From Succinivibrionaceae bacterium (GTDB taxonomy: Bacteria; Pseudomonadota; Gammaproteobacteria; Enterobacterales; Succinivibrionaceae): a stretch of DNA of 64,000 bases. The stretch is taken from contig JAEEOK010000046.1 in NCBI GenBank assembly GCA_016284235.1, positions 333-64,332 on the forward strand, written 5' to 3'. Positions 1 to 35,131 of the stretch are shown one piece after another. A program made the translations under genes and the position numbers. The first letter of the stretch is position 1; each line of letters starts with the position of its first letter. The notes beneath the pieces were generated by a model that saw only the letters and a program-made list of their open reading frames with translations, was not told the DNA's origin and did not search any database.

Positions 1-133
1 GAATATCAAAGATACTAATGTTGAAATTATTATCTATCAGATATTCTTTTTTGATAATACTTCTGCCGGATCCTATAAAAACAGGAGAAAGGCAGGTCAG
101 AGTTACATGGTAGACATCCAAATACGATTTCAT
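1..133 (-). CDS. csm5: Csm5 (type III-A RAMP subunit), N-terminal fragment. The gene continues past the window edge.
   Basis: The reverse complement of 1..133 reads MKSYLDVYHVTLTCLSPVFIGSGRSIIKKEYLIDNNFNISIFDI without a stop. Its ATG overlaps the csm4 stop (ATGA). The position after csm4 and the glycine-rich LSPVFIGSG RAMP-like motif fit Csm5. Confidence 0.7.
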   Translation of the reverse strand, partial: MKSYLDVYHVTLTCLSPVFIGSGRSIIKKEYLIDNNFNISIFDI

Positions 134-1173
134 GAATCTATCCCCACAAAAATCGGTTTACCGTAACGATATACAGGATGACTGCCTCCGCGGCATGCAA
201 CGTTCCTTACGCTGCCCTGAAATATCCGCCTGAAGCAGCTGCCGGATTTGAGCATATAAAGATCCCTCTTTTTCATCTGCTGGGATGCAAATCTGTCGGA
301 GGCTATGAATCCGGATCTTTTTACAACAGCATAAGTACCGTTGTCCAGCGCCTGCTCAAGTTCACTGTCATCAGGAAGTGCTATGCTGATGCTCATAACA
401 TTTTTTCCGGTGTCAAGACGCTTTGAAAGAGAAGCAGGAACATCTTCAATTTCAAACTCAAATCTTCCGCAGCCGGAAAAACGTTTTCCTCCAAGTCCGC
501 TGTATGAAAGTGATGACAGCAGATCCTGCAGTAGTTCACCGGTTTGATCGTCATGGTATTTAACTATAATGTACAGTCCTGAATCAGCAAGGGTCTGATC
601 CCAGGTGCCTGAACCGGATCCGCCGGCGCCGGCGGCATTTTTATTTGCGTGATCTAGAGGTGACTTCGGCAGATTTTCATCCGATCCTGTTTTGTTTCCA
701 CAGGCTGAGAATTCACACATACGGATCCTGTAGGGCATAGCTTCCTCGTTGCCCCGTATTGCAGCGCTGACCTTCATATACTGTCTGACGAAACTTCCTG
801 AAGGATCTGAATGTCTGGCCGGATCGAAAGTTCCGTTCAGATAGCTGTCAAAATCGTCAATACTGATGTATTTAAGTTTTTTAAGCTTCTTTTTCAGTAT
901 GGAGTTGCTTCGGGCATGAAGCTCGGTTTCTCCGGCCGACAGAGGCTTGGGCAGAAAAAAGGTGTTTTCCAGCCACGGAAATGCATCTGAAAACAGAAGG
1001 CGGCCGTTTTGCACGGACTGAAGCAGAAATTCATGTTTCCCCTTCTTCAGAGCCTCAATATAGAGTGCTGAAAATAATGTGTCCGCAGCGAAACAGTAGT
1101 CACCTCCGGATAGAGAGTTTCTGCCGAATCTGAAGGGACCGGAAAAACGGAATTTTACAGTTTTGTAGGGCAT
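130..1173 (-). CDS. csm4: Csm4 (type III-A RAMP subunit, Cas10 partner)
   Basis: The N-terminus FRFSGPFRFGR..DTLFSALYIE and the C-terminal GLGGKRFSGCGRFEFE glycine-rich loop are typical of Csm4. It sits between csm3 and csm5. It carries a Gly/Ser-rich insert (AAGAGGSGSGT). Confidence 0.85.
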   Translation of the reverse strand: MPYKTVKFRFSGPFRFGRNSLSGGDYCFAADTLFSALYIEALKKGKHEFLLQSVQNGRLLFSDAFPWLENTFFLPKPLSAGETELHARSNSILKKKLKKLKYISIDDFDSYLNGTFDPARHSDPSGSFVRQYMKVSAAIRGNEEAMPYRIRMCEFSACGNKTGSDENLPKSPLDHANKNAAGAGGSGSGTWDQTLADSGLYIIVKYHDDQTGELLQDLLSSLSYSGLGGKRFSGCGRFEFEIEDVPASLSKRLDTGKNVMSISIALPDDSELEQALDNGTYAVVKRSGFIASDRFASQQMKKRDLYMLKSGSCFRRIFQGSVRNVACRGGSHPVYRYGKPIFVGIDS

Positions 1174-1191
1174 CTGACACCTCCGGAATAC

Positions 1192-1872
1192 CTATTCGGC
1201 ATCATCAGAAACTTGGGAAATAATCTGACTGAGACTGCTTACCAGATTACTGTCGGCATTACCCGCCACCAGTCTGCAGGACAGATCACTGAAGTCTATT
1301 TTGCCGTATCCTCTTGAACCGTGGCCGCCGATATAGTCATATGTCAGAAGTTTCATGCCGAGTGCCAGATTTCTGAAATCCTCTACTGCCTTGTCGTCCG
1401 ACAGTTCGTAGATCATGTTGAGTCCGAATTCTGATCCTCTTACCGCGCGTTCAATCTGCCGGGGGGTGGCCTTGGCTGTAAGTCTGTCGATGGTGTTTTC
1501 GAATTTAACTTCTGTTGAGCTGGAAAGACCGCGCTGCCTGAGTTCATTATAGTTCAGAAGAAACATATCGGATATTTGAATGCGGCTGCATTTTACATGA
1601 TCCTTTACTGCACAGCCGAAAAGCCGAAGCAGTGGTTCGCAGTCTTTATCAGGACTATTCGGGAGTCTGCCATCTCTTCCTGCCAGTTCTTTAGCAAGAA
1701 GCGTTCTGAGTTTGCCCTTGAGAGAACTGCCCGGAATCATAGGCTGATTGGTCCAGACGTCACGCATCACTGGGGAATCAACTGCGCCAATGGCGGCAAA
1801 GGCTGAAGAACCGCCGATGTGCATACCTGTTTTAACCGTGATTTTTCCGGTAATCTGAATTTTTGCAAACAT
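1192..1872 (-). CDS. csm3: Csm3 (crRNA-binding backbone RAMP, target RNA nuclease)
   Basis: Contains KTGMHIGGSSAFAAIGAVDSPVMRD, including the conserved Asp used for target RNA cleavage, followed by IPGSSLKGKLRTLL. The 226-aa size is typical. Confidence 0.9.
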   Translation of the reverse strand: MFAKIQITGKITVKTGMHIGGSSAFAAIGAVDSPVMRDVWTNQPMIPGSSLKGKLRTLLAKELAGRDGRLPNSPDKDCEPLLRLFGCAVKDHVKCSRIQISDMFLLNYNELRQRGLSSSTEVKFENTIDRLTAKATPRQIERAVRGSEFGLNMIYELSDDKAVEDFRNLALGMKLLTYDYIGGHGSRGYGKIDFSDLSCRLVAGNADSNLVSSLSQIISQVSDDAE

Positions 1873-1883
1873 AAAGACTTCTC

Positions 1884-2351
1884 CTATATATCACTTCCGC
1901 CGTGAAACCTGTTATAGGCAACAAGTGCCTCCATATAATGATAGAACAGCATAAATCTTTTTTTGCTGTTTCCTATTTTCTTAATTTGCTCGTTAAGTCT
2001 GGAGATTTGGAGAAATTTATCAACTTCTTTGTCTCTTCCGGCAGCATAGGCGCATCTGACCCTCAGGTAATCAATTCTCTCCACCAGCTCCTGCTCAAGA
2101 GAATCGCTTTTGTTTTCTGATGTCAGAATCTGATTGAGAATATCTGCAGCCATGGCAAGAATGTTTCTCAGCTGCGTGGTCGTTATGAGTTTTTTTGACT
2201 CTTTAAGATAAAGAATAACCTTTTCAGCATCATCGACATAACTTGTCTCTGTGACCTTGACATCAGGAGCCGGTATGTCCGGCCTGTTCTGATAGTTATT
2301 GCCGCCGCCGCTTCGTCCATGATTGCGATTACCTCCGTAACTGCTGTTCAT
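1884..2351 (-). CDS. csm2: Csm2 (type III-A small subunit) with a Gly/Asn/Arg-rich N-terminal extension
   Basis: A 155-aa helical protein between cas10 and csm3 with a TTTQLRNILAMA motif typical of small subunits. Its start overlaps the cas10 3' end by 23 nt. Confidence 0.75.
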   Translation of the reverse strand: MNSSYGGNRNHGRSGGGNNYQNRPDIPAPDVKVTETSYVDDAEKVILYLKESKKLITTTQLRNILAMAADILNQILTSENKSDSLEQELVERIDYLRVRCAYAAGRDKEVDKFLQISRLNEQIKKIGNSKKRFMLFYHYMEALVAYNRFHGGSDI

Positions 2352-4770
2352 TTTCGCCTCCGCTTTTCTCTCTGTTCATATAGACATATAACTGAATTGC
2401 TGTTCTTAATTCTCTGCAGTCTTTTTCACTGCTCATCCACTCGTATATATTTCTTGAAAAACTGCTGTATGCCTGCTTTTCTTCAGCCGGAGCACCTGAC
2501 GGCGGCTCCAGCCGTGAAAGCAGATAGGCAAGTCTTGCAAAACTGATTTTTTCCCTGCGTGAGCAGATTAGTTCCATTATTCTGTAAAGAAAACTGTTGC
2601 CTCTGCTGTCGGACGTACCGAAAAAATCTGACAGCACTTTGAATTTGCTACCTGCGACTTCTGCTTCAAACTCACTCCAGGAAAATGTGCCGTCATCAAC
2701 TGTCACGCCGTTTTCATCATGAAATGTTCCGTTTGAAAACAGCGTCAAAGCCGATTTGCCGGGACGTCCTTTTGATGCGTCTTCGTACACTGCTGTCTCC
2801 TCCGCGGCAGCACTTACCGGATATGAATCTGAATAAAAACCGATGCCTGCAGAAATAGTGAGGGCTCCGCAGGTATATTTTTTCAGATTTCTGCTGATAT
2901 CCACTGCACACTCAATCACTTCGTTCCATGCACCAATCAGGAATATGTCATCACCGCCTGAATAGACGATTGTCACCTTTCTGTTCTGTTCCGCCTTTTT
3001 TCCACTGAGAGTGAATTCAGAGCGTTCAAGAATTGTATTTATGTGATGCTTGAAAAAAAGCGACAGTGATCTGGAAAGAGCCGCAGTTCTTGCCAGGTTT
3101 ACATATTTCGCACCGTATTTTTTGCTTTCAAAGCCCTTTACAAAGGTCTGCCCCAGATTGTCAACGTCCGCTCTGAGTACCGCGATGCGTTTGATTCCGG
3201 TGCTTTCAGCTGCCAGCTTTTCCATCACGCGATCATAGTAGTAGTCGCCGACCCACAGTCTTGTGGCAACACCTGTTTCACTGACAAAACTGTTTTTGGA
3301 ATATACTCTTACCGGTTTATTATTTTCTGAATTCAGTCTGATCTTGAGATCGTCAGGGGTATCTGCCACAAGACAGCAGTCACCGGGCAGCGGAAGGGCA
3401 TCAGATCCCGAACCCTTAAGCACGGTAAAATAGCACCCTCCGTTTTGTATTCTGTTTGAAAACTCCTCAAGCTGCAGGCAGGATGCACACTTTCCTTCTT
3501 TGTTCAGATGACCGGTTCTCCGGCAGACGCTGCATTCCCTGGTATAGTCATCGTGCTCGAGGCTGTTGAGCCTTTTCAGTTCTGCTGCACTGTATCTGCA
3601 GTTCTTGGCACGGTTGATTTCTTCACCTATTGCAATGAATACCTGTCCCAGGGAACCGTTAGGGCTGTTGCACAGTGCTGCCGGGGAGCAGATGCCGGCT
3701 CCGGAACTGAGAAACAGAGAAATATCAAAAGCGTCAATCAGCCACCTGTTGATACTGCGGCAGAAACAGGACAGTTTTTCCTTTGTGTCCCTGAGATTCG
3801 GGAGCAGGATATAGCAGTGTCCTCCGCCCGAGTAGATCAGGTTCATTCTGCAGAGGGAAAATTCGTCCAGCAGCATATCAATCATATGCTCCATAAGCAG
3901 TTCAAGATAGAAAGAGCGTGAGCGGAGTGTCTTGAGAGCCTTGTCTGTGGTGATAGTGTAGATAAAGTCCTGTATGCCGCATAGATCCATGGAGAACATG
4001 ACAAGCGAGTCGGTCTGAAGAAATCTGCCGCCGCAGTCGTTCAGAAAATTCTCCGGCTCGGCGATCTGCTGATCTTTGATGTATTCGTCCAGGGCAAGCG
4101 CCAGAGCGACACTCATTTTCATGTGATCAAACATTGAAATGTCTGCAGAAACCGCTGAACAGAATGCCGGCACATATGTAGTGTTGACTTCAAGAATTTC
4201 AAGAAGTGAGGAAAGATATGAATCCGAATACTCAAGTTTTTTAAGACTTTTTTCTATGTCGGTCATTATTTTGCGGTAGAATTCCTCGTTCAGCTTCTGA
4301 CTGCTGCCATGACTGACAGCGCCGGAACCGGAAGCTGTGCCGCATTTAAGCTCATGACCGGAAAGAGGAAATCTGATCCCTTCATCCAGTTTTGCTGCGC
4401 CGTAGAAGTATTTCTCCTGAGTTTCCGGAGAATTTCCGCGCTCATCAAGATTGAGCAGATTGTAGATGCTTTCAAACTGACAGTCTGGATCCTCTTTTGC
4501 CGCCGGAGCATCGTAACTTTGGAGTCCGATTGACGCCGCCGCAATATTTCCTGCTGTTTTTACCAGAGTCAGTATGTATGAATCCGGGCATTTTTCAGGA
4601 TCACCGGCTGGATCCGGCGCACCGGAGTATGCTTTAAGATTGTCCGGAACGGAACAGCGTGTGAGAAAATCAAGTCCGCAGGGATCCGCGCCTGCCGATG
4701 CCCTGGCTGCAAGTCTGCTTATGTTAGATACAAGAGATGCAAGTGCGATTTTGATCTGATGTTCTTTCAT
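2329..4770 (-). CDS. cas10: Cas10/Csm1 (type III signature protein). Cyclase palm is intact and the HD motif appears degenerate.
   Basis: Shows SGGGHCYILLP (palm 1), a Cys4 zinc module CSVCRR..GKCASC, and VTIVYSGGDDIFLIGAW (the GGDD cyclase motif). The N-terminus reads IKIALASLVSNISRLAAR where canonical proteins have ..LLHDIGK. Confidence 0.9.
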   Translation of the reverse strand: MKEHQIKIALASLVSNISRLAARASAGADPCGLDFLTRCSVPDNLKAYSGAPDPAGDPEKCPDSYILTLVKTAGNIAAASIGLQSYDAPAAKEDPDCQFESIYNLLNLDERGNSPETQEKYFYGAAKLDEGIRFPLSGHELKCGTASGSGAVSHGSSQKLNEEFYRKIMTDIEKSLKKLEYSDSYLSSLLEILEVNTTYVPAFCSAVSADISMFDHMKMSVALALALDEYIKDQQIAEPENFLNDCGGRFLQTDSLVMFSMDLCGIQDFIYTITTDKALKTLRSRSFYLELLMEHMIDMLLDEFSLCRMNLIYSGGGHCYILLPNLRDTKEKLSCFCRSINRWLIDAFDISLFLSSGAGICSPAALCNSPNGSLGQVFIAIGEEINRAKNCRYSAAELKRLNSLEHDDYTRECSVCRRTGHLNKEGKCASCLQLEEFSNRIQNGGCYFTVLKGSGSDALPLPGDCCLVADTPDDLKIRLNSENNKPVRVYSKNSFVSETGVATRLWVGDYYYDRVMEKLAAESTGIKRIAVLRADVDNLGQTFVKGFESKKYGAKYVNLARTAALSRSLSLFFKHHINTILERSEFTLSGKKAEQNRKVTIVYSGGDDIFLIGAWNEVIECAVDISRNLKKYTCGALTISAGIGFYSDSYPVSAAAEETAVYEDASKGRPGKSALTLFSNGTFHDENGVTVDDGTFSWSEFEAEVAGSKFKVLSDFFGTSDSRGNSFLYRIMELICSRREKISFARLAYLLSRLEPPSGAPAEEKQAYSSFSRNIYEWMSSEKDCRELRTAIQLYVYMNREKSGGENEQQLRR

Positions 4771-4791: not shown

Positions 4792-5550
4792 TTATTCTGT
4801 ACCCCTTTTGCCGGGTGTATTCGGCACCAGGCGCAGGGCTCCCATACCCAAAAATGTTTTGATCCCTACTCCAGAGTATTCTCCGAATTCTGCCAGCAGT
4901 CGCGCGTATCGGGCCATGGTGGCGCTGCCGTTAATTTTGATTGTCATTGAGCCAGTAAAGGCGGGAATGGTTGCGTTCTCAAGCGGGAACGGAATGCTCC
5001 GCAGTCTGTAATTCCTGACTGATGAGTTATCAATCAGCTGGAGCAGAGTTTCTTCGTCAAACATTTCCATATCCGACGCTGCTGAAAACCGGTTCATCCA
5101 GCTTTGAAAAATCAGTCGCAGATCAGGCAGATTAACGTAGCGGGATGCACTCTTGAAGGAAACTGGTGACAGGAATTCGATGTTTATAAATCTGTCTGGC
5201 TCCGATGCACTGTAGAATCTTTCAATCAGTTCCTTTCTTGTTCCAAGTCGTATTTCCTTGCTGACGAATTTCAGCAGAATTCCGTCTTTGAGCTCGTACT
5301 CTGTTTCTGTCGCATTCAGAACAGGCTCTATTATGTTGCGGAAAGCTTCTTCATTAAGGCCTTTAATGTGCCAGAATTTTTTTTCACCAAGTTCCAGAAA
5401 CTGACTGCAGGGAATCTGCACCATCGAATGAAGCTTTTCACAGTATTCAGGTGAAATAAGCTGCATTAGAAGTCCGTGCATATTAGAAGATTTGCGATAA
5501 CTGAATGAGCTATCATCTGTTGTGAATTCTATTTTGAGACTTGACAGCAC
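4792..5550 (-). CDS. cas6: Cas6 endoribonuclease (pre-crRNA processing)
   Basis: Has the C-terminal glycine-rich loop GEYSGVGIKTFLGMGAL characteristic of Cas6. A GTG start is preceded by GGAGG. It is the first gene of the cas6-cas10-csm2-5 operon. Confidence 0.8.
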   Translation of the reverse strand: MLSSLKIEFTTDDSSFSYRKSSNMHGLLMQLISPEYCEKLHSMVQIPCSQFLELGEKKFWHIKGLNEEAFRNIIEPVLNATETEYELKDGILLKFVSKEIRLGTRKELIERFYSASEPDRFINIEFLSPVSFKSASRYVNLPDLRLIFQSWMNRFSAASDMEMFDEETLLQLIDNSSVRNYRLRSIPFPLENATIPAFTGSMTIKINGSATMARYARLLAEFGEYSGVGIKTFLGMGALRLVPNTPGKRGTE

Positions 5551-5663: not shown

Positions 5664-5797
5664 GTTTCAAATATTTGAACGGCTATGTTAAGGAATAGAG
5701 TTGATCCTAAAATTTACCTGATAAATTATAAATTTATCCAGGCTATAAATTTTACTTTTTGAAGTTTAAAAATATAAATACTTACGAAATGTATCGT
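5664..5797. repeat. Left arm of a diverged inverted repeat that brackets the CARF gene
   Basis: The reverse complement of 5768..5794 (ATACATTTCGTAAGTATTTATATTTTT) is identical to 8841..8867. A second block, the reverse complement of 5678..5698 (CTATTCCTTAACATAGCCGTT), matches 8936..8956 with one mismatch. The sequence between them is recognisably related with indels. Confidence 0.85.
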
Positions 5798-5974
5798 GTT
5801 TCTGTGATATCAAAAACTTTGATGAACAGAGCATACCTTTTTTGCCATATTCATACATCTCCGTTAAGTTTTTGGTATTAACAGACTTAACGGAAATACA
5901 CGAATTTTTTGTCAGGCACGTGGATATGAATGTTTATGCTGCAGTGTTATTTTTTGTAAAATCTCAGGATCAAA

Positions 5975-8782
5975 TTATTCTGAATCTTCTGAAGATACAG
6001 CATCTGAATTATTCGGTTCGTTCTCATTACATAAACATTCATCTGTTGAAGTCTGTTCGCTGTCAGATTGCTGTTCTGCTGATTTTCTTGCAACCAGTTC
6101 AAAAAATTCATCCTTGAATTTATACAGTTGTTTCAGTTCATCAGCTGATTCTTTAATTGTTTTCTCAAGAACAGGTATGTTCAGTCCGGCGGCGCTGAAA
6201 AAATTTTTCTTCTGTTCTTTATCGAAAAAAATATCTTTTCTTGCTTCATTGAAGTCAAATCCTCCGAATTTGGCGGAACATGATTCTTTGATCTCGGATG
6301 TTATATAGCGTCTTAGTCTCTTTATCAAATCAAAGTTAGAATTGATATGTATCATTCTGCAGGAGTTTTCTACTATTTCTCCATATTTGCGCATCTTAGC
6401 ATCCATTTTCCTTTTTTTGCCCGAGCGATGTTTTTCTGGCAGTTCGCTTATATATTCACACTCATCTTTAACCATAGAATCCACCAGATCTGTATAGTCG
6501 TACAATGATGCATCCATCCAATCAACTTTCTTGATTTCAGAATTTTTATTGAGTTTCTCGGCAAAAGAGTTGTATGCCTCATATAATGCGCAGATGGCCA
6601 TAGAATACCGGCCTTTTTTACAGAAACTGACAGCCTTGGAGAACAGTTCGCTTTTAACATTCTGCAGATTTTTTTCAAAGAAAGGAAAAATCATATTCAG
6701 TAGTTTGTCTTTTGAACTCAGATCTATAGAGGATATGATTTCAAGAGCCTGTTTATAACTCTTCTGAGCAGTGGAAAAGTAAAGCATTTTTTCTGCTTTT
6801 GATCCTTCACTTATGCATTTGTACAGTTCTGACTGTTCAGGAAGATATCGGTTAAGGAGAGGAAGCAGATATCCGGGATCTTCCGATCCGTTAAAAAGCC
6901 CCACAGACATTGAATCACTGATCATGTTTGCCAGATATGTCAGATCGAGCAGTTTTCCACAGTTCTTTCCATGGGGTAATGAATACCAAAGATGTTTCAG
7001 TTTTGATCCTTTGAGAGCCGTTACAGAGAAGAGAGTAAGAAATGCAACTATAGGGATACTTCTGAAACTGTGGGTAATATCTACTATGAAGTCCTGACCG
7101 GGAGCGATAGAGCTGGTCAAGAAGGTTCTTAATTCTTCGTATGAGTTTTGATTGGAATAGATATCGTCATAGCCAAAAATTTCGATATACTGTCCCAGCG
7201 TCTTTTTATGCCTTTCAAAAAGACTGTTGATTCTGGTTACAGCGTCTTCGTTCAGCCTGTAATCTTCCTGCATACCGTTTCTTTCGTTTTTCATGTATGC
7301 ATATTCCTTGAAACATTGCTCGATTTCAGCCAGGACATCAATTGCATCAAGAGAATCGTTATACTGTTCGAGCAGAAAATCAACAAAACCCTTCCATCCG
7401 CTGGTGTAGGTTCCAATCACTACATACTTGGATATCTCGCCTTTTTTGAAATATTCCATCGAAAGAGAATTGGCAATAAACCTTGATTTGCTGATTTCTA
7501 ACTCTTTTATGTCAAATTCCAGCTCATCATACCTTGCGCTGCCTATAAATGTAAAAAAGACAGGCAGCGGGGCTTGATCGGGTTCGCCGGATGTATCTTT
7601 GCCGCGAATTATTTCGTTGCTGTACAGAAAAGATTTAAGGTTGCTGCCGTAATCTACTATGCTGTTATCTTCGCGGTCGGCATATTCATAGTGGAGGATC
7701 CTGTTTCTGAATTTCAGATATTTATCTCTTTTTTTATCACTGTCGGCAAAAGGATCATGAATACCACTGAGTCTTATATACTCGAGCAACAGAATTGCAC
7801 TGAACATCTGTTCATTGTCGATGTATCTGCGAAGCAGCAGATACATATCTGAACTCAGTGATTTTGTTATTTCTTCAAAAAATTCCGGGGTAAAGACGGT
7901 GCTGTCTCCGAAGAAACTGTTAAGTTTCGGCAGTATATTGCCAAATACTGTTCTCGGTTTATCAAATTCCTGTAAATTCAGACGTTTATCAATCTCCAGC
8001 AAGCCACTGCTGATATTGGTGTCTGTGCATATTCCGGCAATATGATGAAGACGAACACTGTCAGAAAAAAGTGAGTAACAGACAGACTCATCATATATTC
8101 TGTTCAGCATGCCAAGACTGATAAATGAGCTTTTGCTACCCTGATTCTGTGCATAAAAAATATCGGCGATACGTAAATTCTGAATATTCTGAAGAAATTT
8201 TAATGATGCAAGCACTAGAAGCGGAATGAACCTGAAGCCGTTTGTCACATCAAGATATATGTATCTGTTTAGGAACATTTCTTTACATTCGAGAATTTTT
8301 TCAATGATGTCTGTCTGAACTGAATATGAAGAAATATCTCCATTGTAGATCAGGATTGTCAGGCTGCACTTATAGTGCTTTTTTAGAATCTCGTTAATCT
8401 CATTCTGAATAAGTTTGATCTCATCCGGCTCGCACTTTGCTGTTGCATCAAAAATTTTTTCCGGACTTTCTGCATTATGCATAGTGGCATAATCTTCACT
8501 ACTGCAACCTGCAATACGATCAGCAAAAGGAAAAGGAATTCCGTCCATGGCGAAAAGATGTTTGAAATTAAGCACCATATCAAACCAGTAACTTGAGTCG
8601 GAACCGATAATCAGTATGTTTCGAAATGATTTTTTTTGATTCTGCTGCAGATGCTTGAACAGGGCAAGTCCGGGATAGCAGAATTCAACTTTATCAGAGC
8701 ATCCATGAAAGTCGTACATTGCTTTTGTGTATTGTGTTTTGCCATACATGGCTACTAAACAGTTATCTTTATCTGGATTCAT
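5975..8782 (-). CDS. Tandem-CARF protein. Two fused DxTHG/TM1812-type (Csx1-like) units are followed by an acidic tail. It is a candidate cOA-sensing ancillary effector.
   Basis: Unit 1 has CLVAMYGKTQY.., ILIIGSDSSYW, DVTNGFRFIP (aa 178) and KFRNRILH (Rx4H, aa 359). Unit 2 has PVFFTFIGSARY.., YVVIGTYTSGW and DITHSFRSIP (aa 568), with no clear second Rx4-6H. It is a continuous 935-aa ORF immediately upstream of cas6 on the same strand. Confidence 0.7.
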   Translation of the reverse strand: MNPDKDNCLVAMYGKTQYTKAMYDFHGCSDKVEFCYPGLALFKHLQQNQKKSFRNILIIGSDSSYWFDMVLNFKHLFAMDGIPFPFADRIAGCSSEDYATMHNAESPEKIFDATAKCEPDEIKLIQNEINEILKKHYKCSLTILIYNGDISSYSVQTDIIEKILECKEMFLNRYIYLDVTNGFRFIPLLVLASLKFLQNIQNLRIADIFYAQNQGSKSSFISLGMLNRIYDESVCYSLFSDSVRLHHIAGICTDTNISSGLLEIDKRLNLQEFDKPRTVFGNILPKLNSFFGDSTVFTPEFFEEITKSLSSDMYLLLRRYIDNEQMFSAILLLEYIRLSGIHDPFADSDKKRDKYLKFRNRILHYEYADREDNSIVDYGSNLKSFLYSNEIIRGKDTSGEPDQAPLPVFFTFIGSARYDELEFDIKELEISKSRFIANSLSMEYFKKGEISKYVVIGTYTSGWKGFVDFLLEQYNDSLDAIDVLAEIEQCFKEYAYMKNERNGMQEDYRLNEDAVTRINSLFERHKKTLGQYIEIFGYDDIYSNQNSYEELRTFLTSSIAPGQDFIVDITHSFRSIPIVAFLTLFSVTALKGSKLKHLWYSLPHGKNCGKLLDLTYLANMISDSMSVGLFNGSEDPGYLLPLLNRYLPEQSELYKCISEGSKAEKMLYFSTAQKSYKQALEIISSIDLSSKDKLLNMIFPFFEKNLQNVKSELFSKAVSFCKKGRYSMAICALYEAYNSFAEKLNKNSEIKKVDWMDASLYDYTDLVDSMVKDECEYISELPEKHRSGKKRKMDAKMRKYGEIVENSCRMIHINSNFDLIKRLRRYITSEIKESCSAKFGGFDFNEARKDIFFDKEQKKNFFSAAGLNIPVLEKTIKESADELKQLYKFKDEFFELVARKSAEQQSDSEQTSTDECLCNENEPNNSDAVSSEDSE

Positions 8783-8837
8783 AAATGATCCTTTATTATC
8801 AAAGCTATGTTCAACAGAAGTGTGATGCCGCAGAAAT

Positions 8838-8973
8838 TCAATACATTTCGTAAGTATTTATATTTTTGAATTTAAACGGCAAAGTTTACAGCCCGGATTA
8901 CTTTATGATGTATCATGCTGATTTCAGAATCTACGCTATTCCTTAACAGAGCCGTTTGAACAAGTATGCTGAA
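8838..8973. repeat. Right arm of the inverted repeat that brackets the CARF gene
   Basis: 8841..8867 is the exact inverted copy of 5768..5794. 8936..8956 (CTATTCCTTAACAGAGCCGTT) is the inverted copy of 5678..5698. Confidence 0.85.
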
Positions 8974-14686: not shown

Positions 14687-14772
14687 TTTCTAAGCTGTCA
14701 TGTGGCAAATAACGACACTGATCGGAATTCCAACCCGCATGGTCTTTCTAAGCTGCCTATGCGGCAGATAAC
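14687..14772 (-). CRISPR. Relic type I-F CRISPR array with two repeats and one spacer
   Basis: On the minus strand, 14772..14745 reads GTTATCTGCCGCATAGGCAGCTTAGAAA. This is a 28-nt I-F-type repeat with a CTGCC/GGCAG stem and a CTTAGAAA handle. 14713..14687 is a degenerate 27-nt copy, as expected for a terminal repeat. They are separated by a 31-nt spacer at 14714..14744. Confidence 0.8.
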
Positions 14773-15290
14773 TTTGCGTACTCCGAGGCAGCATTCTGTG
14801 GCTGACATTATCTGGTCAATGGTACAGCTCAGTAACGGTGCATATAGCATTTTGGCTGCCTTGGAATTTTTAAAAAGAGTACAAACCCACTCATGCGGAA
14901 GTTCGCCTTCACATACTGTTTCTGCTTCAAAAAGTTCTTCTAGCGATTCAGAACCTGTTAAAGTATTACCATCTTTTTTCGGGTTCCTCTACATTTCTCT
15001 CTCCTGCTCATGAAGCTGCAGAATAGCATCTAAGCCTATGACTACCGCCAGTTCTTCGTCCGTTAGACGGAGTCTGTCACGATATTCATCACCGGTTTGC
15101 AGAGTTAGGTTTTTTAGTCTAAGTGCCAGGGTAAATCGCAGAGTTCCCTCTTCCTCTTCAAGAGCCGCAGCTATTTTGCATTTGCTGTCGTTTTGCCGCA
15201 TCCTGTACCTTCGAGATTAAGAATAAACGCATCGCTGACAGAGGAATTCTCTTTTCTGAATTTTTTCACCGCAGCGGCAGACTGATCCTG
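14773..15290 (-). pseudogene. cas3: cas2/3 (type I-F Cas3 helicase) fragment, frameshifted and truncated
   Basis: Minus-strand frames read DAFILNLEGTGCGKTTANAK (Walker A). After a 1-nt frame change in an A-run they read IAAALEEEEGTLRFTLALRLKNLTLQTGDEYRDRLRLTDEELAVVIG, and then LYAPLLSCTIDQIMSATE. These resemble helicase motifs I to Ib of I-F Cas2/3. The reading frame ends directly at the CRISPR repeat. Confidence 0.65.
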
Positions 15291-15529
15291 TCAGATATAC
15301 TTTCCTTCAGATTTTTGTTTAAGACTTTTTATGATCCCGGTATGAGGAAGGCTGTTTTTTTATCGTTGGCAGGTAGAGTGAGACTTTAAGAGCCACATTT
15401 TTGACTCCGCACAGATGTTCATCCAGTTTTTATCTGCCATTGTGATCCTGATTGGTGTTTGCGTAAAGTGAATTTTCATTTTGCCACTTCGGATCTGAGT
15501 CAAGAGAGGAGAAAAGTGATCTCCGAGCA

Positions 15530-15751
15530 TCAGGAAAGTCGTGCATATCTGAGTATCAACCGCAGAGTTCCTAAGAGAATCGCTGTCGTATTGCACAGCG
15601 GTATGTTGAAACAGTTTTCCTGTTTGGATTTTTCGGCGAGATACAGCACCCTGCCGTCTTTTTGTAAAACGCGACAATGTTCTAAAAAATATAGGTTTGA
15701 TCTTTTGGAATGCAGAATTGATTTCAGCTCAGAAGATTTAAAACTTTCCAT
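15530..15751 (-). pseudogene. cas1: cas1 (type I-F) N-terminal fragment
   Basis: The 73-aa ORF reads SELKSILHSKRSNLYFLEHCRVLQKDGRVLYL..NIPLCNTTAILLGT. As I recall it, this matches the conserved N-terminus of I-F Cas1. The frame breaks after about 60 residues and the remaining roughly 260 aa are absent. Confidence 0.7.
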
Positions 15752-34138: not shown

Positions 34139-34615
34139 ATGAGGGTAGCGGCATTTATTCTGACAGTTGTTCTGTCTCTTTTCTCCTTGAATGTTTCAGC
34201 TGAAACGACAACGTACCGGGATCGTGACGGCAGAGCGCTGGGTACAGCCACCACGAGCGGCAATACCACAACCTACCGGGATCGCGACGGCAGAGTTACG
34301 GGCACTGCTGTCACATCAGGAGGCAGAACCACCTACCGGGATCGCGACGGCAGAGTTACGGGCACGGCTGTTACATCAGGAGGCAGAACCACCTACCGGG
34401 ATCGCGACGGCAGAGCAACGGGCACGGCAACTTATTCCGGCGGCAGAACAACCTACCGTGATCGTGACGGCAGAGCAACGGGTACGGCAACTCACTCAGG
34501 CGGCAGAACAACCTACCGTGATCGTGACGGAAGGACGGTGGGAACATCTGAACATAAGGGGCCCGGCAGAAATTTACCTCCGGATCGCAGACGTGATCAC
34601 CGCCTGAGAAGATAG
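34139..34615 (+). CDS. Secreted protein made of 20-aa TTYRDRDGRxxGTAxxSGGR repeats
   Basis: Has an SD (GAGGTG) plus an ATG at 34139 and the signal peptide MRVAAFILTVVLSLFSLNVSA. About six consecutive 20-aa repeats follow, and the last unit is frame-scrambled. Confidence 0.7.
   Translation: MRVAAFILTVVLSLFSLNVSAETTTYRDRDGRALGTATTSGNTTTYRDRDGRVTGTAVTSGGRTTYRDRDGRVTGTAVTSGGRTTYRDRDGRATGTATYSGGRTTYRDRDGRATGTATHSGGRTTYRDRDGRTVGTSEHKGPGRNLPPDRRRDHRLRR
34201..34600 (+). repeat. 60-bp tandem repeat, about 6.6 copies, inside the repeat-protein gene
   Basis: The units stay in register every 60 nt. 34271..34330 and 34331..34390 differ at two positions. Outer copies are progressively more diverged. Confidence 0.95.
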
Positions 34616-34723
34616 TCTGCCGTATTTTTTGAGGATTTGCGGGTACAGACTGGGAATTTTATGAGCAGTCTGACGCAGCGGACTGTCTGGTTTTTTCCCT
34701 TCGGTTTAAAAAGGAGTTTTTTT

Positions 34724-35131
34724 ATGAAGTTAACCGCACTGATTCTTGCATCTGTTCTTGCTCTGGTATCTTTGGACGCCTCTGCAGGTACAACCACATT
34801 CAGAGATAGCAGCGGCAACGCAACCGGCACGGCGTCAACAAGCGGTAATACAACCACGTTCAGAGATCGAAGCGGCAATGTTACCGGAACTGCAACGCGC
34901 GAAGGCTCCGGCTCCATAGTTTTTCGTGACAGGAGCGGCAATACCACCGGCAGAGCGGAAATTTCCGGAAGCAGGATCACTTTTCGTAATTCCAGCGGAA
35001 ATGTTACAGGTTACGGAGAAATATCTGGCTCGACCGTTATTTACCGTGACAGCAGCGGCAACAGAATCGGAAGTTCGGAGTACAGCGGCGACAATGTAAT
35101 ATTCCGCGATCCGAGCGGAAACAGATGGTAG
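34724..35131 (+). CDS. Secreted protein made of 20-aa T(F/Y)RDxSGNxTG repeats, a paralogue of the upstream gene
   Basis: Has an AAAGGAG SD plus an ATG at 34724 and the signal peptide MKLTALILASVLALVSLDASA. About six diverged 20-aa repeats follow (TTFRDSSGNATGTASTSGNT and so on). Confidence 0.7.
   Translation: MKLTALILASVLALVSLDASAGTTTFRDSSGNATGTASTSGNTTTFRDRSGNVTGTATREGSGSIVFRDRSGNTTGRAEISGSRITFRNSSGNVTGYGEISGSTVIYRDSSGNRIGSSEYSGDNVIFRDPSGNRW

What the first reader, a model, noticed from the sequence alone, without database searches (positions are those of the whole stretch)
5975..8782. 935-aa single-chain tandem DxTHG/TM1812-type CARF protein next to the type III-A module: a candidate new cOA-responsive effector
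The ORF contains the full motif series of the Csx1-like DxTHG family twice. The series is an N-terminal beta-strand with (F/Y)xG..Y, then h-h-h-G-(S/T)..S.W, then D(V/I)T(N/H)(G/S)FR.IP. The first copy covers aa 8-370 and the second starts at about aa 407.

CARF sensors normally bind cyclic oligoadenylate across a homodimer interface. A fused pair would make an intramolecular, asymmetric pocket, because the two copies differ in the signature (DVTNG versus DITHS).

Only the first unit keeps an Rx4H motif (FRNRILH, aa 358-364), which is the HEPN-type RNase signature. The equivalent region of unit 2 (KRLRRYITSE) has no His. After it come about 100 extra residues and a strongly acidic Ser/Asp/Glu tail.

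The gene is co-oriented with cas6-cas10 and directly upstream of them, and no csm6 is present. The only two-CARF single-chain effector I know of is Can1, which carries nuclease domains of a different kind. This architecture therefore looks unusual.
Basis: partly seen in the sequence, partly recalled or inferred. Interest (0 to 1): 0.8.

Follow-up and report, generated by a model that had tools for sequence, protein, structure and literature searches.

The report
Fused double Csx1 CRISPR effector
This gene encodes two Csx1-type signal-sensing RNase units (CARF sensor plus HEPN nuclease) fused into one chain beside a type III-A CRISPR system, a rare uncharacterised counterpart of the recently solved fused effector Csm6-2, with one nuclease half naturally missing its catalytic histidine.

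Summary
Window 5975-8782 (minus strand) is an intact 935-aa ORF made of two homologous CARF+HEPN units.

- **Internal duplication:** unit-1 versus unit-2 profiles give hhalign probability 100%, E 3e-50. R359/H364 align with R824/S829.
- **Family:** both halves hit Csx1/TM1812/DxTHG models independently. Structure models match Csx1 structures best.
- **Locus:** the gene lies directly upstream of cas6-cas10-csm2-5, on the same strand. A longer contig carrying the identical protein shows csm5, a leader and an 11-repeat array. It has no csm6 and no other CARF gene. Cas10 keeps GGDD but has no HD motif.
- **Not unique:** a fused CARF-HEPN-CARF-HEPN effector, Csm6-2, was described in 2024 and solved in 2026. 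I found no sequence similarity to it, and each unit is closer to Csx1, so this looks like an independent fusion.
- **Wider family:** it belongs to a rare, old tandem family of about 20 clusters, those with a taxon label mostly from Succinivibrionaceae. CARF1 has always lost the DxTHG histidine and CARF2 always keeps it. Only this protein's subgroup has also lost the HEPN2 histidine.
- **Context:** about half of the homologues are not next to cas genes.

Most likely it is a cOA-activated single-chain RNase with an asymmetric pocket and active site. I rate it a new variant of a known kind, of moderate interest.

The parts
5975..8782 (-). 935-aa ORF: fused Csx1-type CARF1-HEPN1-CARF2-HEPN2 protein (stop codon 5975-5977)
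   Evidence: AF2 model: pLDDT 79.6, pTM 0.78. Foldseek top hits are Csx1-Crn2, Csm6-2 and SisCsx1.
8048..8770 (-). CARF1 (aa 5-245), with the degenerate signature DVTNGFR at 8231-8251 (aa 178-184)
   Evidence: Alternating strands and helices in both models. PADLOC Csx1 hits on aa 7-334. G14, G60, S64, W66, D178, T180, R184 and P187 are invariant in 10 diverse unit-1 sequences. The His of DxTHG is replaced by N/Y/C/L/T in all 19 tandem proteins (20 counting P0027).
7613..8047 (-). HEPN1 (aa 246-390), a compact helical domain carrying R359-N-R-I-L-H364 at 7691-7708
   Evidence: R359 and H364 are invariant across 10 unit-1 sequences at 16-62% identity. The motif lies at the C-terminal end of helix 349-363. 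Weak Cas13a HEPN model hit on aa 343-386. The unit-1 model matches Csx1 structures over CARF and the helical part: 8y7g E 1.4e-12, TM 0.54.
7565..7612 (-). Low-confidence linker between the units (aa 391-406)
   Evidence: pLDDT below 50 at aa 395-401. Poorly conserved in alignment A2.
6881..7564 (-). CARF2 (aa 407-634), with the canonical signature DITHSFR at 7061-7081 (aa 568-574)
   Evidence: G414, Y418, G457, S461, W463, T570, H571, R574 and P577 are invariant in 19 tandem proteins. PADLOC Csx1 hits.
6044..6880 (-). Enlarged helical HEPN2-type region (aa 635-913), with the degenerate motif R824-R-Y-I-T-S829-E830 at 6293-6313 and a long C-terminal helix (aa 869-913)
   Evidence: PDLC01032 (CARF+HEPN) aligns aa 408-914 to profile positions 4-390 of 412. 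hhalign puts R824 opposite R359 and S829 opposite H364. R824 is invariant in 19 sequences. Position 829 is S/G/N in the 6 full-length close-group proteins of that alignment and H in 12 of 13 distant tandem relatives. E830 is fixed only in the close group.
5978..6043 (-). Disordered acidic Ser/Asp/Glu tail (aa 914-935)
   Evidence: pLDDT below 50. Absent from P0004, P0005 and P0008. Composition.
5678..5832 (.). Downstream arm of an imperfect ~155-nt inverted repeat that brackets the gene (between its stop codon and cas6)
   Evidence: 78% identity to the other arm. Only two copies in the window.
8804..8956 (.). Upstream arm of the same inverted repeat (22-174 nt upstream of the ATG)
   Evidence: The region between the arms has 38% GC, against 45-47% in the cas genes.
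4792..5550 (-). cas6 (type III-A type)
   Evidence: PDLC01781 Cas6_IIIa E 5e-62; PF10040.
2329..4770 (-). cas10/csm1: the cyclase motifs are intact and the N-terminal HD motif is absent
   Evidence: TIGR02578 at 603.9 bits. SGGDDIF, CGIQDFIY and SGGGHCY align with solved Csm1 proteins, but only from residue ~160 onward. There is no H-D dipeptide in aa 1-160 (sequence).
130..2351 (-). csm2 (1884-2351), csm3 (1192-1872) and csm4 (130-1173). csm5 and the CRISPR array lie off the window edge.
   Evidence: csm5, leader and an 11-repeat array are seen on L023.

Best explanation
The gene encodes a single-chain 'pseudo-dimer' of the Csx1 family (CARF1-HEPN1-CARF2-HEPN2). It most likely serves as the signal-activated accessory nuclease of the adjacent type III-A (Csm) system.

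**Proposed mechanism**
1. The Csm complex binds target RNA.
2. Cas10, whose cyclase motifs are intact and whose HD nuclease motif is lost, synthesises cyclic oligoadenylate (cOA).
3. One cOA binds in a composite intramolecular pocket formed by CARF1 (degenerate signature DVTNG) and CARF2 (canonical DITHS).
4. Closure of the pocket is transmitted to the paired HEPN domains.
5. These form one asymmetric active site: R359 and H364 from HEPN1, and R824 (possibly with E830) from HEPN2.
6. RNA is degraded non-specifically.

**Shown:** the domain content, the internal duplication, the conservation pattern and the locus composition.

**Inferred:** intramolecular pairing of the units, cOA binding and its ring size, and RNase activity with only one catalytic His.
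For: **Domain content**
- Both halves are Csx1-type CARF+HEPN units.
- The units are homologous end to end, with the motifs in register.
- The full-length model has pTM 0.78, which suggests a confidently packed multi-domain body.
- Fold matches are Csx1-Crn2 (E 5e-10), Csm6-2 (E 2e-7, full-length alignment), SisCsx1, SSO1389 and Csm6 proteins.
- Unit 1 alone matches Csx1 structures best, with TM up to 0.54.

**Precedent**
- Csm6-2, with the same architecture, folds as an intramolecular dimer. It binds one cOA between CARF1 and CARF2 and is a cOA-activated RNase (PMC11229360, PMC13187428).

**Locus**
- The gene is co-oriented with and 424 nt upstream of cas6-cas10-csm2-5.
- On L023 the operon ends in a leader and an 11-repeat array, with no csm6 or other CARF gene.
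- Cas10 has GGDD but no HD motif. The signalling arm would therefore need an effector.

**Selection**
- R359 and H364 are invariant in all unit-1 sequences compared.
- R824 is invariant in 19 tandem proteins, and T570, H571, R574 and P577 are also invariant.

**Relatives with CRISPR neighbours**
- P0004 lies in a type III locus with a Cas10d-like gene.
- P0005 lies next to a single-unit Csx1.
- L013 lies behind cas1-cas2.
- The P0012 cluster in Ruminobacter lies next to cas6-cas1-cas2.
Against: - HEPN2 lacks the catalytic His (S829). In Csm6-2 all four residues (R295, H369, R723, H730) are essential for RNA cleavage (PMC13187428). A one-His site may be weak or inactive.
- About half of the homologue contexts show no cas gene within the sequence available: L011/L001/L003, L012, L006, L008, L020 and L026.
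- I could not inspect model coordinates, so CARF1-CARF2 and HEPN1-HEPN2 pairing is not directly shown.
- TM-scores to Csm6-2 are low (0.24-0.27).
- Pfam barely recognises the protein.
- No ligand or activity data exist.
- The gene has a lower GC content (38% versus 45-47%) and is bracketed by inverted repeats. It may be a recent insertion rather than a co-evolved partner.
Confidence: 0.6

Rival explanations
1. It senses cOA but is catalytically impaired. The protein would bind cOA through its CARF pair, but the half-degenerate HEPN pair no longer cleaves RNA efficiently. It would then act as a cOA buffer or sponge, a ring nuclease, or an RNA-binding or regulatory protein that tunes the type III-A response.
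For: - The HEPN2 His is replaced by S/G/N in the 6 full-length close-group proteins compared (the P0007 fragment keeps it). This comes with coordinated changes: N825 to R/K, and E830 fixed.
- In Csm6-2 each of the four R/H residues is essential.
- CARF1 has also lost the His of DxTHG.
- Some Csx1/Csm6 proteins degrade cOA through their CARF or HEPN domains (PMC9704534).
Against: - R359 and H364 in HEPN1 and R824 in HEPN2 are invariant. That argues for a maintained active site rather than decay.
- One fragmentary relative (P0007) still has His at this position within an otherwise identical motif. The position therefore looks tolerant rather than the site being dead.
- The locus has no other effector that such a regulator could modulate.
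Confidence: 0.2
2. It is a stand-alone defence or stress RNase that does not depend on the neighbouring Csm system. The tandem family would be a mobile, self-contained module. It might respond to another nucleotide signal, or to cOA made elsewhere in the cell. It would have landed next to cas6 here by chance insertion.
For: - The 60-61% homologues lie among a GTPase, DUF805, ABC-transporter or glycosyltransferase genes.
- P0008 lies among housekeeping genes.
- P0013 lies beside conjugative transfer genes.
- P0014 in Succinimonas amylolytica lies beside MoxR-VWA-ABC1 genes.
- In the window the gene has 38% GC against 45-47% for the cas genes, and it is bracketed by a ~155-nt inverted repeat, like an inserted cassette.
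Against: - CRISPR-related neighbours recur in at least five independent, highly diverged contexts at 21-30% identity. This is unlikely to arise by chance.
- CARF effectors are known to act in trans.
- No alternative cyclase was seen next to the orphan copies.
- No viral or plasmid copies were found.
Confidence: 0.15
3. It is an assembly or sequencing artefact that joins two adjacent csx1 genes.
For: None beyond the a priori possibility.
Against: - The identical 935-aa product occurs on three other contigs from different sources.
- A 99% copy (P0001, L002) is also full length.
- Homologues from 22% to 61% identity are all uninterrupted across the unit junction.
Confidence: 0.01

Closest known systems
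Csm6-2 of Actinomyces procaprae (fused CARF-HEPN-CARF-HEPN; PMC11229360, PMC13187428; PDB 9w3u/9w3v/9w3w)
   Same: - Single polypeptide with two CARF-HEPN modules.
- Associated with a type III CRISPR locus.
- Asymmetric CARF pair; in Csm6-2 this pocket binds cA5.
- Foldseek recognises it over the full length (E 2e-7).
   Different: - No detectable sequence similarity. Csm6-2 is in the PDB sequence library, yet neither the protein nor the family profile hits it.
- Each unit here is closer to Csx1 than to Csm6 or Csm6-2. Unit 1 gives E 1e-12 for Csx1-Crn2 against about 1e-3 for Csm6-2.
- Csm6-2 keeps R and H in both HEPN domains and all four are essential. Here HEPN2 has no His.
- Here: 935 aa, type III-A, Succinivibrionaceae. 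Csm6-2: about 797 aa, type III-D, Actinomyces.
Canonical Csx1 (TM1812/DxTHG family, CARF2 clade): SisCsx1 6qzt, SSO1389 2i71, PfuCsx1 4eog, Marinitoga Csx1-Crn2 8y7g
   Same: - Same CARF signature (DxTHGxR), CARF-helical-HEPN order and RNxxxH motif.
- Best profile matches (TIGR02221, PADLOC Csx1) and best fold matches.
- Type III accessory gene.
   Different: - Canonical Csx1 is about 400-480 aa and works as a homodimer (or a hexamer of dimers) with a symmetric cA4 pocket and two identical Rx4-6H motifs.
- Here two diverged copies are fused. CARF1 lacks the signature His and HEPN2 lacks the catalytic His.
[quoted passage not shown]
   Same: - Monomeric effector with two CARF domains forming one cOA pocket.
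- One degenerate and one active nuclease-type domain forming a composite site (PMC9704534).
   Different: - Can1 uses PD-D/ExK DNA nuclease domains and nicks DNA.
- Its CARF domains belong to a different clade.
- No sequence relationship was detected.
Wider tandem Csx1 family found here (P0009, P0011-P0019, P0022, P0031, P0032; e.g. Succinimonas amylolytica WP_019001868.1, Ruminobacter WP_294462686.1)
   Same: - Orthologous unit 1 and unit 2 by the reciprocal HMM test.
- Same CARF asymmetry: DxT[NY]G, then DxTH[SCG].
- Where a taxon is named for a member of the 19-protein family, it is Succinivibrionaceae.
   Different: - These are 930-1110 aa and keep Rx4H in both HEPN domains (P0013 has a shifted R-x3-H in HEPN2).
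- The window protein's subgroup (P0002-P0008, L013) has the derived HEPN2 motif R-[RK]-x-x-[TS]-[SGN]-E.

Membership tests
Csx1 / TM1812 / DxTHG family (TIGR02221; CARF2 clade CARF-HEPN effectors) | CARF domain with the DxTHG(xR) signature that scores above the curated family threshold | tested here: met
   TIGR02221 scores 91.6 bits against a cutoff of 76.25. TIGR02549 DxTHG matches in two stretches, E 7e-13. Each half hits PADLOC Csx1 models at E about 1e-19 to 1e-24. Unit 1's signature is DVTNG (His lost); unit 2's is DITHS.
Csx1 / TM1812 / DxTHG family (TIGR02221; CARF2 clade CARF-HEPN effectors) | C-terminal HEPN domain with an Rx4-6H motif | tested here: inconclusive
   Met in unit 1 (R359-x4-H364, invariant). 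Not met in unit 2 (R824-x4-S829). The protein as a whole has one canonical motif rather than the two per functional dimer.
Csx1 / TM1812 / DxTHG family (TIGR02221; CARF2 clade CARF-HEPN effectors) | Csx1-like three-dimensional fold | tested here: met
   Foldseek top hits are Csx1-Crn2, SisCsx1, SSO1389 and PfuCsx1. Probability is 1.00 and E is down to 1.4e-12. TM is 0.54 for unit 1.
Csx1 / TM1812 / DxTHG family (TIGR02221; CARF2 clade CARF-HEPN effectors) | Homodimeric assembly and cA4-activated RNase activity | not testable with these tools
   This needs biochemistry. The tandem fusion presumably replaces the homodimer.
Csx1 / TM1812 / DxTHG family (TIGR02221; CARF2 clade CARF-HEPN effectors) | Genomic association with type III CRISPR-Cas | tested here: met
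   Adjacent to cas6-cas10-csm2-5 and an array. For the tandem family as a whole, only about half of the contexts are CRISPR-linked.
Csm6-2 (fused Csm6; Hoikkala 2024) | CARF-HEPN-CARF-HEPN in one polypeptide | tested here: met
Csm6-2 (fused Csm6; Hoikkala 2024) | Sequence homology to A. procaprae Csm6-2 or the Csm6 lineage | tested here: not met
   phmmer (E up to 1) and the family profile (E up to 10) against PDB sequences give no Csm6-2 hit, although 9w3u is in that library. No NCBIfam or Pfam Csm6 model is hit. Unit 1 ranks Csx1 structures far above Csm6-2.
Csm6-2 (fused Csm6; Hoikkala 2024) | Both HEPN domains contribute Arg and His (four essential residues) | tested here: not met
   The HEPN2 His position is Ser829. 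The requirement in Csm6-2 comes from PMC13187428.
Csm6-2 (fused Csm6; Hoikkala 2024) | Intramolecular CARF1/CARF2 pocket binding one cA5/cA6; homotetramer | not testable with these tools
A pTM of 0.78 only suggests compact packing.
Can1 | Two CARF domains plus a PD-D/ExK nuclease domain | tested here: not met
   No PD-D/ExK or Can1/Can2 model hit was found. The helical HEPN-type domains occupy that place instead.

The most novel reading that the evidence does not exclude
The tandem Csx1 family is an independently evolved single-chain cOA sensor. Its fixed CARF asymmetry (signature His lost in CARF1, kept in CARF2) would tune it to an asymmetric or odd-numbered ligand such as cA3 or cA5, or to a non-canonical signal. 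The window's subgroup would have gone further and rebuilt the HEPN active site to work with one His, with R824 and E830 supplied by the degenerate half. That would be a catalytic arrangement not described for CRISPR HEPN nucleases. The many orphan copies in Succinivibrionaceae would then be trans-acting receivers of a cell-wide nucleotide alarm, not locus-bound accessories.
Probability: 0.25. Interest if true: 0.7.

Novelty: new variant of a known kind. Interest (0 to 1): 0.5.

Why it matters
**Convergent fusion.** Fused CARF-HEPN effectors were recognised only in 2024-2026, with Csm6-2. There the fusion creates an asymmetric pocket that selects cA5. A second, apparently independent fusion within the Csx1 lineage would show that converting a homodimer into a single chain is a recurrent route to new ligand specificity in type III CRISPR signalling.

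**A natural experiment on the active site.** This family compares tandem proteins that have both HEPN histidines with a subgroup that has only one. That directly tests how many catalytic residues a composite HEPN site needs.

**Immunity in trans.** The mix of CRISPR-linked and orphan copies in rumen Succinivibrionaceae bears on whether cOA effectors can work away from the cas locus.

**Practical use.** Single-chain cOA-activated RNases are attractive reporters for type III or Cas13-coupled diagnostics.

Tried and rejected
- **Pfam:** almost blind to this protein. The only hit was Csx1_CARF at E 0.34.
- **PDB sequence searches:** neither the protein nor the family profile found anything relevant.
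- **Word-index homologue search:** it returned only three close relatives.
- **Genome-collection scan:** one truncated locus only.
- **Viral contigs and plasmids:** no relatives found.
- **The flanking inverted repeat:**
  - no plasmid match
  - no Rfam family
  - no unusual RNA fold, z-score -0.37
  - promoter and terminator scans were at background level
  - no comparable repeat around homologues
  - it remains unexplained
- **Makarova et al. 2020 CARF classification:** the library does not hold it. I could not check whether it lists tandem CARF2-clade proteins. The PADLOC model names 'CARF2--CARF_HEPN_CARF' hint at related architectures, but those models match only partially.
- **Sequencing-error fusion:** considered and rejected.
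- **CRISPR arrays in the window:** I looked for a type III array but found only a two-repeat type I-F remnant.
- **Pseudo-dimer packing:** it could not be measured, because model coordinates are not exposed.


Full report
**1. The observation**

Window 5975-8782 holds one uninterrupted 935-aa ORF on the minus strand, starting with ATG. It is co-oriented with, and upstream of, the following genes, identified with strong profile scores:
- cas6 (4792-5550)
- cas10/csm1 (2329-4770)
- csm2 (1884-2351)
- csm3 (1192-1872)
- csm4 (130-1173)

The duplication is statistically robust:
- NCBIfam TIGR02221 (cas_TM1812) scores 91.6 bits against a curated cutoff of 76.25, in two stretches. The DxTHG model TIGR02549 also matches twice.
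- Residues 1-400 and 401-935, searched separately, each hit many PADLOC Csx1/'CARF2--CARF_HEPN' models. The best E-values are 2e-19 and 2e-24.
- BLASTP between the halves sees only the DxTHG region (E 6e-4).
- A profile of 19 unit-1 sequences aligned globally to a profile of 19 unit-2 sequences gives hhalign probability 100%, E 3.4e-50, over 373 columns. This puts F358-R359-N-R-I-L-H364 opposite L823-R824-R-Y-I-T-S829.

The ORF is not a mis-assembly. The identical protein is found on three further contigs from different sources. A 99% copy (P0001, L002) and relatives at 60-61%, 30%, 27% and 22% identity are continuous across the junction.

**2. Anatomy**

An AlphaFold2 model built on eight family sequences has mean pLDDT 79.6 and pTM 0.78. 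It shows these parts:

| Part | Residues | Key feature |
|---|---|---|
| CARF1 | ~5-245 | Alternating strands and helices; DVTNG follows the strand at 174-178 |
| HEPN1 | ~246-390 | Compact helical domain; helix 349-363 ends in the RNRILH motif |
| Linker | ~391-406 | Low confidence |
| CARF2 | ~407-634 | DITHS signature |
| HEPN2-type region | ~635-913 | Larger helical region; helix 817-827 carries R824; long terminal helix 869-913 |
| Tail | 914-935 | Disordered and acidic; not conserved in relatives |

Foldseek against the PDB returns, all at probability 1.00:
- Marinitoga Csx1-Crn2 (E 5e-10)
- Actinomyces procaprae Csm6-2 (9w3u_A; E 2e-7, aligned over the full length)
- SisCsx1
- SSO1389
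- several Csm6 proteins

A separate model of unit 1 (pLDDT 83.0) matches Csx1 structures best: 8y7g at E 1.4e-12 and TM 0.54, then 6qzt, 2i71 and 4eog. Csm6-2 ranks only at E about 1e-3. I could not access model coordinates. The intramolecular pairing of the two units is therefore inferred from the high pTM and from the Csm6-2 precedent. It was not measured.

**3. The locus**

The window ends inside the csm operon. Contig L023 carries the identical protein and continues as follows: csm5, about 350 nt of leader, an array of 11 repeats (GTAACAATGACCACTTCCCCGTAAGGGGACGGAAAC), and then an LRR protein. There is no csm6, no other CARF or SAVED gene, and no cas1/cas2 in the locus. On the other side are a Usp protein, a zinc-ribbon membrane protein and RNase E, none of which hits a defence model.

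Cas10 keeps the cyclase hallmarks (SGGDDIF, CGIQDFIY, SGGGHCY). These align well with solved Csm1 proteins, but only from residue ~160 onward. The N-terminal 160 residues contain no H-D dipeptide. The HD nuclease therefore appears to be lost, which would make the signalling arm, and so a cOA effector, important for this system. That last step is inference.

**4. Relatives**

An exhaustive profile search of 1.84 billion representative proteins gave only 126 hits at E below 1e-3. Most were ordinary 400-aa Csx1 proteins matching one unit. About 20 were 830-1110-aa tandem proteins. They fall into two groups.

*Close group:* the window protein, P0002-P0008, and the L013 protein.

*Distant group:* P0009, P0011-P0019, P0022, P0031 and P0032.

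Reciprocal HMM scoring shows that the units are orthologous between the groups. This points to one old fusion rather than repeated fusions:

| Close-group unit | Score on distant unit-1 HMM | Score on distant unit-2 HMM |
|---|---|---|
| Unit 1 | 96-132 bits | 63-75 bits |
| Unit 2 | 63-78 bits | 135-180 bits |

A family-wide asymmetry follows:
- CARF1 always reads DxT[N/Y/C/L/T]G, with the His lost.
- CARF2 always reads DxTH[S/C/G]. T570, H571, R574 and P577 are invariant.
- HEPN1 always keeps R-x4-H. R359 and H364 are invariant.
- HEPN2 always keeps R824.
- The HEPN2 His is present in 12 of 13 distant-group proteins. It is replaced by S/G/N in all six full-length close-group proteins. This comes with N825 changed to R/K and a fixed E830.
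- One fragmentary relative (P0007) still has His in the same motif.

Where a source names the taxon of one of these 19 proteins, it is Succinivibrionaceae: Ruminobacter, Succinimonas amylolytica, and an 'Aeromonadales' MAG. P0027, a separate 833-aa tandem protein, is from Candidatus Syntrophocurvum alkaliphilum. Existing labels are 'CRISPR-associated DxTHG motif protein', 'TM1812 family CRISPR-associated protein', 'Csx2 family protein' or 'hypothetical protein'.

**5. Genomic contexts of relatives**

CRISPR-linked contexts:
- This locus, on four contigs.
- P0004, which lies in a type III locus with a Cas10d-like gene, RAMP genes and two further Csx1-type genes.
- P0005, directly behind a 481-aa Csx1.
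- The L013 homologue, behind cas1-cas2.
- The P0012 cluster in Ruminobacter, next to cas6, cas1 and cas2.

Contexts with no cas gene in the sequence available:
- The 60% homologue, on L011 and on L001 plus L003. L001 and L003 overlap at 99% identity, so they are one locus. Neighbours are a GTPase, a 649-aa unknown protein, DUF805, ABC transporters and DUF1848. Coverage is 5.2 kb upstream and 10 kb downstream.
- L012, with glycosyltransferases downstream.
- P0008, among housekeeping genes for 10 kb on either side. Its convergent neighbour weakly matches the CRISPR-type CorA model.
- P0009.
- P0013, beside conjugative transfer genes.
- P0014 in Succinimonas amylolytica.

Linkage to CRISPR thus recurs across very divergent members, which argues for a real functional tie. 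It is far from universal.

**6. Mechanism**

The best-supported reading is a cOA-activated single-chain Csx1-type RNase. Cas10 makes cOA on target binding. One molecule binds the composite CARF1/CARF2 pocket. The HEPN1/HEPN2 pair forms a single asymmetric active site.

The strongest external support is Csm6-2. That protein has two tandem CARF-HEPN modules that intertwine into an intramolecular dimer. It binds one cOA between CARF1 and CARF2 (three AMPs on one side and two on the other) and is activated as an RNase (PMC11229360, PMC13187428).

The main caveat comes from the same work. R295, H369, R723 and H730 are all essential in Csm6-2, whereas this protein has no HEPN2 His.

Against simple decay stands the invariance of R359, H364 and R824, and the fixation of E830 in the subgroup. 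I therefore favour a working, asymmetric site. I keep a cOA-binding but catalytically impaired protein (sponge, ring nuclease or regulator) as the main rival, and a stand-alone module as a second rival.

The ring size of the ligand cannot be predicted. Csx1 relatives use cA4, but the fixed asymmetry makes an odd-numbered ring conceivable. That is speculation.

**7. Comparison with known systems, and novelty**

- The protein works like Csm6-2 but is not a member of that family. It has no sequence similarity to Csm6-2, although Csm6-2 is in the searched library. Each unit is closer to Csx1. The four-residue active site is not conserved.
- It is a member of the broad Csx1/TM1812/DxTHG superfamily by profile and by fold, but it departs from it in being a fused, diverged pair.
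- In the paper library I could search, the only described tandem CARF-HEPN protein is Csm6-2. I could not read the 2020 CARF classification.

I rate it a new variant of a known kind: a probably independent Csx1-lineage fusion with a half-degenerate CARF pair and, in this subgroup, a half-degenerate HEPN pair. Interest is moderate. The architecture no longer surprises, but the family offers a clean natural test of ligand asymmetry and of HEPN active-site requirements.

**8. Unexplained feature**

The gene is bracketed by an imperfect inverted repeat of about 155 nt, at 5678-5832 and 8804-8956, with 78% identity. It has 38% GC, against 45-47% for the cas genes. This suggests that it arrived as a cassette. 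No other copy, RNA family or structure was found for the repeat.

Noticed in passing
window 5678-5832 and 8804-8956: An imperfect ~155-nt inverted repeat (78% identity) brackets the 935-aa gene exactly. The enclosed region has 38% GC, against 45-47% in the neighbouring cas genes. This could be a cassette insertion or an inversion scar. No other copies, Rfam match or stable fold were found.
   Followed up: partly
window 14687-15751 (minus strand): Remains of a type I-F CRISPR-Cas locus:
- a 73-aa Cas1f N-terminal fragment (15530-15751; E 3e-27)
- Cas3f helicase fragments (14989-15201 and 14698-14850)
- only two type I-F-like repeats (GTTATCTGCCGCATAGGCAGCTTAGAAA at 14745-14772, plus a degenerate copy around 14687-14713)

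The 99%-identical contig L002 still has at least 8 repeats at its end (L002 1-428).
   Followed up: partly
window 2329-4770 (cas10), N-terminal ~160 aa: Cas10/Csm1 keeps the GGDD cyclase motifs, but its N-terminal region has no HD dipeptide and does not align with the HD domains of solved Csm1 proteins. It appears to be a signalling-only Cas10.
   Followed up: partly
L023 15486-16284 (off the window, beyond csm5): The type III-A CRISPR array: 11 repeats of GTAACAATGACCACTTCCCCGTAAGGGGACGGAAAC with spacers of roughly 35-45 nt. It follows a ~350-nt leader and is followed by an LRR-protein gene. No cas1/cas2 lies nearby.
   Followed up: partly
L006 12669-13766 (neighbour of tandem homologue P0008): A 365-aa protein convergent with the tandem Csx1 homologue matches the CRISPR-associated CorA model (PADLOC E 4e-9) in an otherwise housekeeping neighbourhood. 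This echoes the reported CorA/Csm6-2 association.
   Followed up: no
L004 5504-22670: A type III locus (Cas10d-like) carrying three Csx1-type genes in a row:
- a 503-aa Csx1
- the 889-aa tandem homologue P0004
- a 1340-aa protein with an N-terminal full Csx1 unit and about 850 further residues

It also carries a helicase-phosphoribosyltransferase fusion, a DprA-like gene and an AAA_33-metallophosphatase gene.
   Followed up: no
P0002 / L011 5282-8482, C-terminal ~120 aa: The 60% homologue carries an internal duplication of the end of HEPN2, including a second copy of the degenerate motif (KLRRCISGN after KLRRYITSE).
   Followed up: no
L028-L030 (Ruminobacter, P0012 cluster): This tandem Csx1 with both HEPN motifs intact sits next to cas6, a DUF5131 gene, cas1 and cas2. 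No effector-complex genes lie within 10 kb.
   Followed up: no
L020 1-9655: Tandem homologue P0013 lies directly downstream of conjugative transfer genes (TraI, TraG/TrwB, TraL, TraE, TrbI, TraF). At least some family members therefore travel on conjugative elements.
   Followed up: no
window 34208-34956: Arrays of 60-nt tandem repeats (65-95% identity), probably a repeat-containing coding region. Unrelated to the finding.
   Followed up: no
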